DNA from: Escherichia coli
GTDB lineage: Bacteria > Pseudomonadota > Gammaproteobacteria > Enterobacterales > Enterobacteriaceae
Assembly: GCF_022846255.1 (NCBI RefSeq)
Contig: NZ_AP025682.1
Reading direction: 5' to 3' (one strand)
Length of the DNA: 64,000 nt
The first letter of the stretch is position 1. Each line of letters opens with the position of its first letter. Shown here piece after piece: positions 3,001-6,000 of the stretch. The position numbers were made by a program.

Positions 3001-6000
3001 AAAATCATTATTGAAGTACCATCATTAATACCATCATAGGTATTGTTCTCCTTTGGCAACAGTTCTTTGATATCGAAATACTTTAACGAACTTTTTATGA
3101 CATCATACTTTGAAGAAAAAATCACATACTGATTTTCATCCAGTACATCTTGCAAGACAAGGTATAAAACAGGGACTACGATTAAAAATAGCAAAGTCAT
3201 TCACTAAATGAATTCAAAATCAGTGATGTTCTTATCTGCAAGAATATAATATATTTAAAAGATTATAAGCAATATATAAATAATAATATAGCTTTAAAAA
3301 AACACACATGAATTAGAAGTTAAATACATTAATTAAAGAAACAAATAAGTAAGAATTTTGTTTTTAAATAACTCATGCAAACGCATCGTTTATTTATATT
3401 AAAGGAAAATGATGAAATCCAATCTAAATTTAAATAGCTACATTACAAACGAATAGAAAAAGAAGCATTTTCCATGTTAAACTACTATCTTGGTGAAGAC
3501 AGGGGGTATAGCCTTCTGCGGTAGCCTACGCTCTTCGAATGCAAAGCAAGAAAATAACCTTTATAATCAAATTGTTATGCAATGCGCTTGTAGAGCAAAG
3601 GTATCTTAAACGAATAGGTTTAACAGTTAAAGCCTCTTTACATAGGCTGAACAAGGGCAGTACTTGAAAATGATAAAATTGGGGTATGTTTAAAATTATG
3701 AATGCCCATAGTTTAGAGATGAGAAAAGAGTTAGGAGCATATTATACTCCAAGTGCTCTTAGTCAAGTGATGTCAGATTGGGCAATTAGAAGACCAACTG
3801 ATAAAATACTTGAGCCAAGTTTTGGAGGCTGTGGCTTTTTAGAAAGCTGTGAAAAGAGCCTCATGGAGATAGGCTGCATAAACCCAATGGAAAATTTATT
3901 TGGGGTTGATGTAGACCAAAAAGCCTTTGATACTCTCAAAAAAAAATATGGGCATTTATTAATAAAAAAACATTTCATTTTAAGTGATTTCATTAACGTA
4001 TTTCCAAAAGATTTTGGCATTGAAGATTTTGAGGTTATCATTGGGAACCCTCCTTATATCTCTATGCATAATATGAGTTATGAACAAAGGAAGTCCTGTG
4101 AAAAAGTTTTTGCTGACTCACCTTTTAAAACAAAAACATTAGGACGCAATGCAAGTCTTTGGGGGTTTTTCTTACTCCATGCATTAAGCTTCATTCGAGA
4201 AAATGGACGAATAGCGTGGGTATTACCGAGTAGTTTTTTAAATGCCTATTATGCGAAAGAGCTTATAAGAATTTACAAAAATCATTTTAACCATCTAAAA
4301 ATAATAAAGATAAATGAAAGACTTTTCAAAAATGAAGGTGCCGATGAAATGTCAGTACTTTTTTTATGCGATGAGTTTCACAGGACACCTATCAATAATG
4401 GATACGTTTCAATTGGATTTGCTGACACATTAAATGAACTAACCAGCATAATGACTGGAACTAAAGAAAACAAATTAAATAGCTCTGAAAATTACAAATA
4501 TAATATATTAGATATTGACACATTAAATGTGATATCGTCTATAACAGAACATAAGTACAGTTTAAAAATACAGGATATTGCTGATATAAAGATTGGGATG
4601 GTAACCGGCATGAACAACTTCTTTATATTGGATCAAAATCAAATTTTAAAACATAATTTAGACAATAAACATTTTAGACCAGTTATTTCACGATTTTCAC
4701 ATTTGAAGGGAATTCACCACACATTAAAAAGACATACGAAGTTAATTGCAGACAATAAAAAAGGATTGCTATTACACGTCAGTCCAGATGATTTATATGA
4801 AAAACATAGTCCGTTGAGAAAATATTTATCACAAGTTGATAGAAAAGAACGAGTCAAAAACCGCACATTCAAAAAACGAAAAAAGTGGTTTCAACCAGAT
4901 GATGGTATTTACCCAGACGCATTTTTTTCATATATGGTTCATGAGTTTCCCAGAATGATATTAAATAAAGGGAAAGTTAACTGCACTAACTCAATACATC
5001 GTATCTTTTTCAAAGATATAGCATCTAATAAATTAAAAAAAGCATGTTGCATATCTCTTTTATCAACATTTTCACAACTTTCTGCCGAACTTGAAGGTCG
5101 GTCATATGGCTCAGGTGTGCTAAAAATAGAGCCTACCGCAGGAAAGAACATATCATTCTTAATTAAAGATGATTTAATACACGAGTTAAGCAACTTAAGT
5201 AAAGAAATAGATCAATTGCTTTTAAATAATGAAACAAGCAATGCCACTGCTTTAGTTGATAAGTTTTTTGTTGATAAGGGACTAATTAGCTTAGATGAAT
5301 TGAAAAGTCTTAAAAAAGGGTTATTCAGATTAAGAAAAGATCGATATAAAGGGGTCAAAAATTATGAGTGAAGATATTCTTTTTTTGAAGGATAAGATGA
5401 AAGCCCTCCTGGATAATGAGGCTCTCGATTATGATAAAGTATTAGAAACAGCAGTAAAAATCACCGAAAAAGACAACAACAATATTAGATTTTCTGTAGA
5501 TGCGAATTTAGTTAGAAGATTAGGTGAGCAGTTAGTCGCTAAAAAAACTACTGCTGTCAGTGAATTGGTGAAAAATGCTTATGACGCAGATTCGACATTA
5601 GTAAATGTATATTTCGAATTGAACGAAGCAAATCCTCGAATAGTCATATTCGATGACGGCACAGGTATGTCAAAGGAAGATATTATCAATGGATTCATGC
5701 GAATAAGCACAAGTGAAAAAGAAGATAACTCTGTTTCAGAACGATATCAGAGACTAAGAGCAGGTAGAAAAGGTATTGGGCGTTTTTCTACACAGCGATT
5801 AGGAAATTATTTAAAAATAATTACCAAGCAAGAAAATGAAGAGTTAGGATATTTAATAGAAATTAACTGGCAGCAGTTTTCAAAAAAGAAAAATATATCC
5901 TTCATTGCTAACACTATCTCAAAAATCGATGTGGATTTCATTCATGGAACAAAAATAATAATAGAAGATCTGAATGATAAAGATTGGTCTGATGGGAACA

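What the first reader, a model, noticed from the sequence alone, without database searches (positions are those of the whole stretch)
3201..3685. Long, extremely AT-rich non-coding leader upstream of the methyltransferase operon
Nearly 500 bp with no convincing ORF, very low GC and multiple A/T tracts precede the first operon gene. Regions like this on horizontally acquired DNA are typical targets for H-NS-type silencing and can hold complex promoters or small RNAs.
Basis: inference. Interest (0 to 1): 0.25.

Follow-up and report, generated by a model that had tools for sequence, protein, structure and literature searches.

The report
Two-part leader of a defence operon
The 485-base gap before the methyltransferase operon is truly non-coding but has two parts: a fast-evolving, very AT-rich spacer that belongs to the surrounding genomic island, and a conserved ~250-base control region (likely promoter, a probable IHF protein-binding site, ribosome-binding region) that travels with the four-gene restriction-modification-like cassette; it is a modest, mostly ordinary finding.

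Summary
Window 3201-3685 has no credible ORF and is 28.7% GC, but it is bipartite. 3201-3446 is 20.3% GC, the most AT-rich DNA in the 64 kb. 3447-3685 is 37.2% GC, above the island mean.

The window is the E. coli leuX locus, with an ~18 kb integrase island at 2964-21029. The non-coding stretch really runs 2964-3697: ORF 2991-3200 is not conserved, and the methylase starts at ATG 3698, not 3686.

Comparison with relatives from Salmonella, Proteus, Pantoea, Rahnella and metagenomes splits the interval.
- The AT-rich half is island-specific. It diverges faster than synonymous sites and is missing from other copies of the cassette.
- The last ~250 bp moves with the four-gene cassette (N6-methylase, GHKL/histidine kinase, receiver-domain protein, unknown). 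It has two blocks more conserved than third codon positions.
- It also carries a fixed-spacing module: extended -10 promoter motif (3475-3483), hairpin plus invariant GCGGTAG (3500-3524), and an IHF consensus (3565-3577).

H-NS binding is plausible from composition alone. No high-affinity motif or A-tract phasing was found. No known RNA family matches, and covariation is not significant.

Verdict: an ordinary AT-rich spacer plus a previously undescribed but conventional regulatory leader.

The parts
2940..2963 (-). Direct repeat of the 3' end of tRNA-Leu(CAA) leuX, with one base deleted. It marks the distal end of the ~18 kb island, 2964-21029.
   Evidence: The full leuX gene is at 21030-21114 (-). 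Shared sequence with TUM11353, Salmonella and L027 starts exactly at this repeat.
3016..3036 (+). Tandem arm-type repeats (GTACCATCA and ATACCATCA, 12 bp apart). These are probable integrase arm sites of the island's attachment region.
   Evidence: The same tandem pair (ATACCATCA twice, 12 bp apart) sits at 20886-20906 next to the integrase gene. The 14-mer matches between the two island ends number 12, against 1.4 in shuffles.
2991..3200 (-). 69-codon ORF, probably not a gene.
   Evidence: It is not annotated in TUM11353 and not called in the Salmonella loci. One-base indels break the frame in L002 and L027, and L027 has no ORF of 60 aa or more there. It has no Pfam or PADLOC hit.
3201..3440 (.). 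Extremely AT-rich, island-specific spacer (about 20% GC). It is under low constraint and is a possible nucleoid-protein (H-NS-type) target by composition only.
   Evidence: GC is 20.3%, the lowest in the window. Identity to L002 is 85.8% and to L027 is 76.5%, against 94.1% and 91.6% at third codon positions of the next gene (p=2e-4 and 2e-8). It is not homologous upstream of the Proteus, L011 or L013 cassettes, and only weakly and partly so in L009 and Pantoea.
3409..3456 (+). 15-codon ORF (MMKSNLNLNSYITNE) behind an AAAGGA motif. It is probably fortuitous.
   Evidence: It is kept in L002 and L027 but with non-synonymous changes, and it is absent from the other cassette lineages.
3447..3530 (+). 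Conserved block 1 of the cassette leader.
   Evidence: Identity is 84.5% to L009, against 60.9% at third codon positions (p=1.5e-5). It is 100% and 96% identical to L002 and L027.
3454..3483 (+). Candidate promoter P1: -35-like TAGAAA (3454-3459), an 18-bp spacer, then an extended -10, TG-T-TAAACT (3475-3483). The predicted start is near 3487-3492.
   Evidence: TGnTAnnnT is kept in all eight lineages that have the leader. Positions T1, A2 and T6 are invariant while inner positions vary. The weight-matrix score of 6.8 is not above shuffles, so the call rests on conservation.
3500..3524 (+). Hairpin CAGGGGGU-AUA-GCCUUCUG (3500-3518) ending in the invariant heptamer GCGGTAG (3518-3524).
   Evidence: GCGGTAG lies 43-44 nt after the TG motif in seven lineages and 39 nt after it in L013. 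A hairpin directly precedes it in L011, L039 and L013 with different stem sequences. The fold is -13.4 kcal/mol on the + strand against -7.1 on the - strand, with z only -0.8. 89% of cells pair, with no compensatory double changes.
3565..3577 (+). IHF consensus site AATCAAATTGTTA (WATCAANNNNTTR), preceded by an A/T-rich tract.
   Evidence: It is one of five exact matches in the 64 kb. It sits 40-47 nt after GCGGTAG: an exact match in the window, L002, L027, Proteus, Pantoea and Rahnella, and one mismatch in L009, L011 and L039. The N positions differ between lineages. Chance expectation is 0.02 exact matches per 330 nt.
3605..3697 (+). Conserved block 2. It holds the second copy of AAACGAATAG (3608-3617; the first is at 3447-3456), the short palindrome TTTAAC-A-GTTAAA (3619-3631), and the Shine-Dalgarno-like GGGG (3681-3684).
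   Evidence: Identity is 86% to L006 and 85% to L009, against 70% and 61% at third codon positions (p=1e-3 and 4e-6). The 10-mer occurs exactly twice in the 64 kb, both times here.
3698..5371 (+). N6-adenine DNA methyltransferase, first gene of the cassette. The start is corrected from 3686 to 3698.
   Evidence: Pfam hits are N6_Mtase, Eco57I and M_Eco57I_C. The best PADLOC hit is type II MTase, 2e-89. The MNAH start is shared by all relatives.
5364..9506 (+). Three further overlapping genes: a GHKL (HATPase_c_3) plus histidine-kinase protein (5364-7673), a receiver-domain protein (7660-8763) and an unknown 247-aa protein (8763-9506). Conservation between lineages stops at the last stop codon.

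Best explanation
The interval is two unrelated pieces of non-coding DNA placed end to end.

**1. 3201 to about 3440: island backbone.** This is an extremely AT-rich spacer under little sequence constraint. It lies between the island's recombination arm (arm-type repeats at 3016-3036) and the cassette. It is probably coated by H-NS-like proteins, like the rest of this 35%-GC island. It is not needed by the operon.

**2. About 3441 to 3697: the operon's own control region.** It is inherited together with the four genes wherever the cassette lands.
- Most likely an extended -10 sigma-70 promoter (TG-T-TAAACT, 3475-3483) starts a transcript near 3490.
- That transcript would carry a 5' leader of about 205 nt. 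The leader opens with a small hairpin and the invariant GCGGUAG.
- About 80 bp downstream of the start, the DNA carries an IHF site (3565-3577) that would bend the leader DNA.
- A second conserved block (3605-3697) holds a repeat of the AAACGAATAG motif found at the promoter, short palindromes, and the ribosome-binding region of the true start codon (3698).
- Together these would set and limit expression of a restriction-modification-like, potentially self-toxic defence operon, possibly with feedback from the cassette's own kinase and receiver pair.

**Shown:** the bipartite composition, the non-coding status, the boundaries, co-inheritance with the cassette, purifying selection on the two blocks, and the fixed spacing of the three motifs.

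**Inferred:** that the TG motif is the promoter, that IHF binds, that H-NS binds, and any feedback.
For: - **Composition and ORFs:**
- **Island anatomy:**
- **The cassette occurs in unrelated contexts:** Salmonella leuX island, Proteus ICE-like region, Pantoea chromosome, an IS-flanked locus, Rahnella, and P2-type prophage hotspots. Conservation ends at the last stop codon.
- **Left boundary of homology:** 3452 for Proteus, 3392 for L009, and weak homology further upstream in Pantoea (blastn alignment from 3185; recognisable similarity only from about 3365).
- **Purifying selection:** blocks 1 and 2 are 85-86% identical where third codon positions are 61-70% (p from 1e-3 to 4e-6). The stretch between them is at or below the neutral level. 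The AT-rich part diverges faster than third positions.
- **Motif geometry:** TGnTAnnnT, GCGGTAG and WATCAANNNNTTR keep spacings of 43-44 nt (39 in L013) and 40-47 nt in eight lineages, down to 63% methylase identity. The IHF consensus positions are kept while the N positions vary. Chance expectation is 0.02 exact IHF matches per 330 nt.
- **The AT-rich upstream tract is not universal:** L011, L013, L014 and L040 have 46-56% GC at -500..-251.
- **A kinase and receiver pair is encoded in the operon:**
Against: - No promoter candidate scores above shuffled sequence: the top real score is 8.3, P1 scores 6.8, and shuffled tops average 9.0. Other -10-like hexamers exist, such as TATAAT at 3562 and TGATAAAAT at 3671, so the start site is not established.
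- An IHF site inside a transcribed leader is unusual. It fits at least as well upstream of a promoter lying in block 2.
- The Shine-Dalgarno-like GGGG is 13 nt from ATG 3698, which is long.
- Block 1 is no better conserved than third positions in the Proteus lineage: 69.7% against 70.1%.
- Only about 6-8 independent lineages exist, and relatives at 50-53% identity lack the module.
Confidence: 0.6

Rival explanations
1. The whole ~485 bp is one H-NS-silenced, complex promoter region. H-NS nucleates on the AT-rich tract and spreads over the promoter, keeping the acquired operon silent until it is counter-silenced.
For: - At 20.3% GC, this is the most AT-rich DNA of the window, and it lies on an acquired island.
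- TpA density is 0.142 per nt against 0.047 in the core genome.
- There are ten loose matches (3 mismatches or fewer) to TCGATAAATT in 246 bp, or 40.7 per kb against 18.3 per kb for the island.
- From established knowledge of xenogeneic silencing, DNA this AT-rich in E. coli is usually H-NS-bound. IHF is known to oppose H-NS at some promoters.
Against: - There is no match to the high-affinity motif at 2 mismatches or fewer and no phased A-tracts.
- The AT-rich half is not conserved with the cassette. It diverges faster than synonymous sites, and GC-rich DNA replaces it in other hosts of the cassette.
- The best -10 in it, TATAAT at 3245, is destroyed in L027.
- The whole island is 35% GC, so H-NS coverage would not be specific to this stretch.
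Confidence: 0.2
2. The conserved proximal half acts mainly as RNA. A structured 5' UTR, made of a 5' hairpin, single-stranded GCGGUAG and a long-range helix to the region about 50 nt before the start codon, controls mRNA stability or translation of the methylase.
For: - The hairpin uses G-U pairs and is stable only on the + strand: -13.4 against -7.1 kcal/mol.
- A hairpin directly before GCGGTAG recurs in L011, L039 and L013 with different stem sequences.
- Changes in Pantoea (G-U to A-U, U-G to C-G) keep the pairs.
- There is strong long-range complementarity between the sequence after GGTAG and positions -57..-46. L011 gives -23.8 kcal/mol (shuffle fraction 0.027), L039 -29.1 (0.007) and Proteus -19.6 (0.02). 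The 3' arm is at the same position in L011 and L013 but with unrelated sequence.
Against: - The window's own leader folds no better than shuffles (z=-0.84).
- Its long-range duplex is ordinary: -12.1 kcal/mol, shuffle fraction 0.55.
- Covariation measures do not exceed the shuffle control, and there is only one compensatory pair, from one lineage.
- There is no Rfam match.
- The IHF consensus and the repeated 10-mer point to DNA-level recognition.
Confidence: 0.2
3. The interval hides a small protein gene or the decayed remnant of one. Candidates are a lost controller-type regulator, the 15-codon ORF at 3409-3456, or the frame that gives a 78-aa ORF in L009.
For: - In L009 and L010 a 78-aa ORF is called. 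Its 3' end overlaps block 1 in the frame that reads ...YKQIEKKVFFMLNY..., and similar peptides can be read in the window, Pantoea and Proteus.
- The 15-codon ORF has an AAAGGA motif upstream and survives in L002 and L027.
Against: - The frame is interrupted by stops in the window, L027 and Pantoea, and is shifted by an insertion in Proteus.
- By my own count on the window/L009 alignment, only 3 of 11 substitutions are synonymous.
- Nucleotide conservation continues unchanged past the L009 stop codon.
- There is no Pfam hit, and no gene is called here in the TUM11353, Salmonella or Pantoea loci; callers mark only 34- and 41-codon ORFs with no Pfam hit in some Proteus-lineage loci.
Confidence: 0.05
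4. The AT-rich half is part of the island's attachment-site arm, holding integrase, excisionase or IHF binding sites used for excision and integration. It would not be a transcriptional element.
For: - It lies 240-480 bp from the island end.
- Arm-type repeats shared by both island ends exist nearby (3016-3036 and 20886-20906).
- The island encodes a P4-type integrase and an AlpA-like protein.
Against: - The arm-type repeats lie outside the interval. No further copy of ATACCATCA (1 mismatch or fewer) and no IHF consensus occurs in 3201-3446.
- Rapid divergence with indels argues against specific protein sites.
Confidence: 0.1

Closest known systems
AT-rich upstream regions of horizontally acquired genes silenced by H-NS (xenogeneic silencing; for example proU, bgl and pathogenicity-island promoters). 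This comparison rests on my own knowledge.
   Same: It is a very AT-rich, TpA-rich non-coding tract on an integrase-borne island, directly upstream of the island's first operon.
   Different: No binding data exist. There is no high-affinity motif and no phased A-tracts. The tract is not conserved with the operon and is absent from other homes of the same operon.
Regulatory leaders of restriction-modification operons: controller (C) protein with C-box operators, methylase autorepression, and antisense RNAs. This comparison rests on my own knowledge.
   Same: It is a control region that is inherited with a methylase-first, potentially toxic operon. It contains repeated and palindromic short motifs near the promoter and the ribosome-binding site.
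   Different: There is no C-protein gene and no helix-turn-helix domain on the methylase. The motifs do not resemble a C-box. An IHF consensus and the invariant GCGGTAG are features not known from those systems.
IHF-assisted promoters and IHF sites matching WATCAANNNNTTR.
   Same: There is an exact consensus with an A/T-rich tract on its 5' side, placed at a fixed distance between two conserved blocks. The consensus positions are conserved while the N positions vary.
   Different: Binding is untested. If P1 is the promoter, the site lies inside the transcribed leader rather than upstream of the promoter. No sigma-54 promoter or enhancer-binding ATPase is present.
[quoted passage not shown] 2021, PMC8011034).
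   Same: The gene order matches: methyltransferase, then a HATPase_c_3 plus histidine-kinase protein, then a receiver-like protein, on mobile DNA.
   Different: The methylase is an N6-adenine type rather than the C5-cytosine type predominant in that paper. HEF_HK scores below the Pfam cut-off (19.8 against 24.1 bits) and Response_reg_2 is not detected. The fourth gene is unknown rather than Vsr or HNH. The paper does not mention any upstream leader.
Extended -10 (TGn) sigma-70 promoters.
   Same: TGnTAnnnT is present with an invariant TG, A2 and T6 and a weak -35.
   Different: No start site has been mapped, and the weight-matrix score is not above shuffled sequence.

Membership tests
H-NS (xenogeneic silencing) target region | AT content far above the host genome, on horizontally acquired DNA | tested here: met
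   GC is 20.3% at 3201-3446, against 50.4% to the right of leuX. The region lies in a leuX island with a direct repeat and an integrase.
H-NS (xenogeneic silencing) target region | High-affinity nucleation motif (TCGATAAATT-like) | tested here: not met
   There are 0 matches at 2 mismatches or fewer in 3201-3697, and 10 at 3 mismatches or fewer in the AT-rich part.
H-NS (xenogeneic silencing) target region | Intrinsic curvature from helically phased A-tracts | tested here: not met
   AA/TT periodicity at 9.5-11.5 bp is not above shuffles: 375 of 500 for 3201-3446 and 48 of 500 for 3201-3685.
H-NS (xenogeneic silencing) target region | H-NS occupancy, and derepression in an hns mutant | not testable with these tools
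   This needs ChIP, EMSA or genetics.
Extended -10 sigma-70 promoter | TG one base upstream of a -10 hexamer with A at position 2 and T at position 6 | tested here: met
   TGTTAAACT lies at 3475-3483. The pattern TGnTAnnnT is kept in eight lineages.
Extended -10 sigma-70 promoter | A transcription start about 7 nt downstream | not testable with these tools
   No transcript data are available. The weight-matrix score of 6.8 is below the mean top score of shuffles, 9.0.
IHF binding site | Match to WATCAANNNNTTR with a 5' A/T-rich tract | tested here: met
   AATCAAATTGTTA lies at 3565-3577 after AAAATAACCTTTAT. Six loci from four lineages are exact and three loci from two lineages have one mismatch, all at a fixed distance from GCGGTAG. 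Expectation is 0.02 per 330 nt.
IHF binding site | IHF binding and bending | not testable with these tools
   This needs footprinting or EMSA.
Controller (C-protein / C-box) regulated R-M leader | A small helix-turn-helix C-protein gene in or before the operon | tested here: not met
   There is no conserved ORF in 2964-3697. No HTH family is found in the four cassette proteins.
Known cis-regulatory or small RNA families (Rfam 15) | A covariance-model match at or near the gathering score | tested here: not met
   Within 3201-3697 the only hit is uxuA at 16.3 bits, against a gathering score of 66.8, with E=6.8.
Structured 5' UTR (new RNA element) | Base pairs supported by compensatory changes and by stability beyond shuffles | tested here: inconclusive
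   89-93% of cells pair, but covariation equals the shuffle control and there is one compensatory pair. The z-score is -0.8. Long-range duplexes are significant only in L011, L039 and L033.
attP arm of a P4-type integrase island | Arm-type repeats shared by both ends of the island | tested here: not met
   The repeats exist at 3016-3036 and 20886-20906 but not inside 3201-3685.
TCS-like R-M / paraMORC cassette (HEF_HK + Response_reg_2, PMC8011034) | A HATPase_c_3 plus HEF_HK histidine-kinase-like protein next to a methyltransferase | tested here: inconclusive
   HATPase_c_3 scores 2.7e-27 and HATPase_c scores 1.3e-25. HEF_HK scores 19.8 bits, below the 24.1 cut-off. The methylase is N6-adenine type.
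TCS-like R-M / paraMORC cassette (HEF_HK + Response_reg_2, PMC8011034) | An adjacent protein with the Response_reg_2 (PF19192) domain | tested here: not met

The most novel reading that the evidence does not exclude
The ~250-bp leader may be a dedicated, previously undescribed switch. It would combine an IHF bend with two copies of a short operator motif and the hairpin-GCGGTAG element. Through it, the cassette's own histidine-kinase and receiver pair, or a leader RNA structure, would control establishment and firing of a two-component-like restriction-modification/paraMORC defence system.
Probability: 0.2. Interest if true: 0.55.

Novelty: new member of a known kind. Interest (0 to 1): 0.3.

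Why it matters
Methylase-led defence operons are dangerous to a new host, and how they are switched on safely is known for only a few restriction-modification types.

This cassette belongs to a computationally predicted class that has not been tested experimentally: a methylase with a GHKL/histidine kinase and a receiver protein. It sits in classic defence hotspots, including P2-type prophages. It carries its own conserved control region with a fixed promoter, GCGGTAG and IHF arrangement.

That gives concrete, mutable targets for testing how such systems are regulated.

The AT-rich half is ordinary. Its main lesson is that striking base composition marked the wrong half of the interval.

Tried and rejected
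- **Rfam scan of 2700-3900 at E up to 10:** nothing relevant.
- **Consensus promoter/terminator scan and a weight-matrix scan:** no candidate above shuffles.
- **The search for related loci with the methylase in genome contigs:** no relatives confirmed.
- **Pattern scans for the block-1 core:** Genome contigs gave 4 hits and metagenome contigs 12. Only one (L027) was real and the rest were chance.
- **Three-motif module scan in viral contigs:** three hits, all the same phage coding sequence.
- **blastn of 2964-3700 against plasmids and phages:** no match. Against E. coli genomes, only TUM11353 matched.
- **Small ORFs rejected as not conserved**: 16 codons from ATG 3474, 15 codons from 3409, 39-42 codons at 3490-3667, and the L009 78-aa frame.
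- **Sigma-54 promoter in block 2:** rejected by reading, because the GG-to-TTG spacing is 2 nt short and there is no TTGC.
- **Local hairpins:** TTAAAC/GTTTAA (3606-3623) and AGCCT/AGGCT (3631-3648) are broken in L009 and Proteus.
- **A-tract phasing:** none.
- **Arm-type repeats inside the interval:** none.
- **oriT or a mobile-element end:** considered because of the hairpin plus IHF. Rejected because the leader occurs without a relaxase or recombinase (Pantoea, L011) and the cassette has no matching right end.
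Full report
**Setting**

The window is the leuX region of an Escherichia coli chromosome.
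- ARAGORN finds tRNA-Leu(CAA) at 21030-21114 on the minus strand.
- A 24-base copy of its 3' end, with one base deleted, lies at 2940-2963.
- Between the two lies an ~18 kb, 34.7% GC island; the core genome to the right is 50.4% GC.
- The island carries a P4-type integrase (19593-20840), an AlpA-like gene, three consecutive large minus-strand ORFs at 13757-17905 that I read as tyrosine recombinases (not checked against any family library), and a MobA-type relaxase (Pfam Relaxase).
- At its far end it carries a four-gene operon, the subject of the finding.
- Only one of 5,426 complete E. coli genomes (strain TUM11353) carries this DNA. It is 99.3% identical over 2964-3700.

**Checking the observation**

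The interval 3201-3685 is non-coding.
- Every frame has 9-17 stops.
- The ORFs of 20-42 codons are not conserved.
- PGAP annotates nothing there in TUM11353.

The interval is also AT-rich. GC is 28.7%, and only 1.2% of 485-bp windows in the 64 kb are as low. But it is not uniform.
- 3201-3446 is 20.3% GC and holds the lowest 200-bp windows of the whole sequence.
- 3447-3685 is 37.2% GC, above the island average.
- The A/T runs are not helically phased.

Both boundaries need correction.
- The neighbouring 69-codon ORF (2991-3200, minus) carries one-base indels in two relatives, is called by no annotator, and overlaps integrase arm-type repeats. The non-coding stretch therefore begins at the island end, 2964.
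- The methylase starts at ATG 3698 (MNAH...). This start is shared by every relative. ATG 3686 is ATA in L027 and is followed by a stop in L009.

**What the operon is**

The four genes overlap, which suggests translational coupling.

| Gene | Coordinates | Identity | Evidence |
|---|---|---|---|
| 1 | 3698-5371 | Eco57I-like N6-adenine methyltransferase | |
| 2 | 5364-7673 | 769-aa protein: N-terminal GHKL ATPase (HATPase_c_3; resembles the N-terminus of BbrUII/HgiDII restriction enzymes) and C-terminal histidine kinase | |
| 3 | 7660-8763 | 367-aa protein with a receiver-domain N-terminus | |
| 4 | 8763-9506 | 247-aa protein with no detectable relatives of known function | |

The same four genes, in the same order, occur in very different places:
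- the same island in Salmonella enterica;
- an ICE-like region of Proteus mirabilis;
- the Pantoea cypripedii chromosome;
- an IS-flanked locus;
- Rahnella;
- between gpA and the portal gene of P2-type prophages in Serratia and Rahnella, which to my knowledge is a recognised hotspot for anti-phage genes.

A 2021 comparative-genomics paper describes this general kind of cassette: a methyltransferase followed by a HATPase_c_3/HEF_HK kinase-like protein and a Response_reg_2 receiver-like protein, related to paraMORC ATPases (PMC8011034). The present cassette is a divergent N6-adenine version. HEF_HK scores below the Pfam cut-off, and Pfam does not recognise the receiver at all. That paper says nothing about upstream sequences.

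**The interval splits in two when relatives are compared**

Alignments of the upstream DNA from nine loci show that similarity to the Proteus lineage begins at 3452 and to L009 at 3392. To Pantoea it is strong from about 3441 and weak, composition-level, further upstream. On the other side, similarity ends exactly at the stop codon of the fourth gene. The unit that moves is therefore about 250 bp of leader plus four genes.

Within that leader:
- Two blocks (3447-3530 and 3605-3697) are 85-86% identical to relatives whose methylase third-codon positions are only 61-70% identical. Fisher p values are 1.5e-5, 3.7e-6 and 1.1e-3.
- The 74 bp between the blocks is at or below the neutral level.
- One exception: block 1 is no better than neutral in the Proteus lineage.

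The AT-rich half behaves oppositely.
- It is shared only by the three copies of this island: TUM11353, Salmonella L002-L005, and metagenome L027.
- There it is the fastest-diverging segment. Identity to L027 is 76.5%, with ten gap columns, against 91.6% at third positions (p=2.4e-8).
- In four other homes of the cassette, the DNA at -500..-251 is 46-56% GC.

So the AT-rich tract is not something the operon needs.

**Anatomy of the conserved leader**

Three motifs keep a fixed geometry in all eight lineages that have the leader, down to 63% methylase identity, where the surrounding sequence no longer aligns.

1. **TGnTAnnnT.** In the window this is TGTTAAACT at 3475-3483. TG, A2 and T6 are invariant and the inner positions vary, which is the pattern expected of an extended -10 promoter. 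A -35-like TAGAAA lies 18 bp upstream.
2. **GCGGTAG.** The invariant heptamer lies 43-44 nt later (39 in L013), at 3518-3524. A small hairpin directly precedes it (3500-3518 in the window). In L011, L039 and L013 a hairpin is there too, but with different stem sequences.
3. **IHF consensus WATCAANNNNTTR.** It lies 40-47 nt later, at 3565-3577, after an A/T-rich tract.
   - It is exact in the window, L002, L027, Proteus, Pantoea and Rahnella L013.
   - It has one mismatch in L009, L011 and L039.
   - The four N positions differ between lineages.
   - An exact match is expected 0.02 times per 330 nt. The whole 64 kb has five.

Other features:
- The 10-mer AAACGAATAG occurs exactly twice in the 64 kb, at the start of each conserved block (3447 and 3608). 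L009 carries a G-to-A change in both copies.
- Block 2 also holds the palindrome TTTAAC-A-GTTAAA and the GGGG/GGAG Shine-Dalgarno-like motif, 13 nt before ATG 3698.
- Cassettes at 50-53% identity (P2-prophage copies, Vibrio) lack the module.
- Scans of the genome, metagenome and viral collections for its core found only one more true copy, L027. All other hits were chance.

**How it most likely works**

- *Shown:* the leader is co-inherited with the operon, parts of it are under purifying selection, and the three motifs keep their spacing.
- *Inferred:*
  - The TG motif is the operon's promoter, giving a leader of about 205 nt.
  - IHF binds and bends the DNA between the two blocks.
  - The blocks are contact sites for a regulator, either a host factor or the cassette's receiver protein. 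This regulator would restrain a methylase-first, potentially self-toxic operon.

I put about 0.6 on the general statement: an island-specific AT spacer plus a cassette-borne promoter and regulatory leader with an IHF site. I put much less on any one detail.

No promoter candidate beats shuffled sequence, so the start site is open. If the promoter lies in block 2, then block 1 and the IHF site form an upstream control region instead.

**The RNA alternative**

- *For:* the hairpin depends on G-U pairs and is stable only on the plus strand. One-sided changes keep its pairs. L011, L039 and Proteus have significant long-range complementarity between the sequence after GGTAG and the region about 50 nt before the start codon. 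In L011 and L013 the 3' arm is at the same position but with unrelated sequence.
- *Against:* the window's own leader folds no better than shuffles. Covariation equals the shuffle control. Rfam finds nothing.

With six to eight lineages this cannot be settled.

**H-NS**

From established knowledge of xenogeneic silencing, a 20% GC tract in E. coli is very likely bound. But so is most of this 35% GC island.

Nothing here singles out 3201-3446 as a functional silencer: there is no high-affinity motif at 2 mismatches or fewer, no phasing, no conservation, and no association with the cassette. It is acquired DNA and it does contain a real regulatory leader. But the regulatory content is in the half that is not extremely AT-rich, and the H-NS and small-RNA ideas remain untested or unsupported.

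**Verdict**

The AT-rich tract is ordinary. The conserved leader is a new but conventional kind of element, a cis-regulatory region of a mobile defence-type operon. It is worth a modest follow-up because the operon class itself is experimentally uncharacterised.

Noticed in passing
window 2940-2963 and 21030-21114; island 2964-21029: This is a leuX-integrated ~18 kb island bounded by the tRNA gene and a 24-base repeat of its 3' end with one base deleted. A truncated second integrase gene (1949-2818, minus) lies just outside the repeat. That suggests tandem or successive islands at leuX. In TUM11353 the DNA beyond the repeat is different: a type I R-M system and AbiE.
   Followed up: partly
window 3016-3036 and 20886-20906: Tandem ATACCATCA-type repeats, 12 bp apart and in the same orientation, occur at both ends of the island. 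They are probable integrase arm-type sites. They lie inside the unconserved 69-codon ORF.
   Followed up: partly
window 3686 vs 3698: The longest-ORF start of the methylase (ATG 3686, also chosen by PGAP in TUM11353) is probably wrong. ATG 3698 (MNAH) is the start shared by all relatives. In L009 the upstream ATG forms a start-stop pair, ATG TGA.
   Followed up: yes
window 3698-9506; L014 5001-10883; L040 2512-8382: The four-gene cassette sits between gpA and the portal gene of P2-type prophages, a defence hotspot. None of its last two proteins matches PADLOC, PHROGs, Pfam or PDB sequences. It looks like an experimentally uncharacterised anti-phage system of the two-component-like R-M/paraMORC kind.
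   Followed up: partly
window 7660-8763: Gene 3 has a confident receiver-domain fold that Pfam, including Response_reg_2, does not detect. Its well-modelled 240-residue C-terminal domain (pLDDT 91.7) has no solved structural relative. That domain has invariant W, C and D residues and a possible small excisionase-type helix-turn-helix.
   Followed up: partly
window 3734-3766 (minus strand): A promoter-like site on the minus strand (TTGACT, 16 bp, TAATAT) overlaps a 17-base palindrome at 3734-3750 inside the first codons of the methylase (GAYYTP motif). It could drive antisense transcription across the ribosome-binding site. Its conservation cannot be separated from coding constraint, and synonymous variants weaken it in other lineages.
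   Followed up: partly
window 13757-17905 (minus strand): Three consecutive, overlapping large minus-strand ORFs (401, 441 and 543 aa) that look to me like tyrosine recombinases (no family search was run on them), an arrangement reminiscent of 'recombinase in trio' elements, sit inside the island.
   Followed up: no
L033-L036 (Proteus) 1216-2538; L037/L038 (Pantoea) 1456-2538: Other hosts of the cassette also have unusually long stretches upstream of the methylase (about 1.3 kb and 1.1 kb) that hold no ORF with a Pfam hit (only 34- and 41-codon calls in some Proteus-lineage loci). Only the last ~250 bp is homologous to the window.
   Followed up: no
L011 4788-4799 with 4944-4955; L013 4802-4813 with 4944-4955: In two distant lineages a 12-base segment shortly after GCGGTAG is complementary (11 of 12 and 12 of 12) to a segment at exactly -57..-46 from the start codon. 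The sequences are completely different in the two lineages. This hints at a conserved long-range helix that the window's lineage shows only weakly: 7 bp, 3522-3528 with 3643-3649.
   Followed up: partly
window 547-1440: A 297-aa ORF left of the island has an N-terminal helix-turn-helix-like sequence. It was not examined.
   Followed up: no
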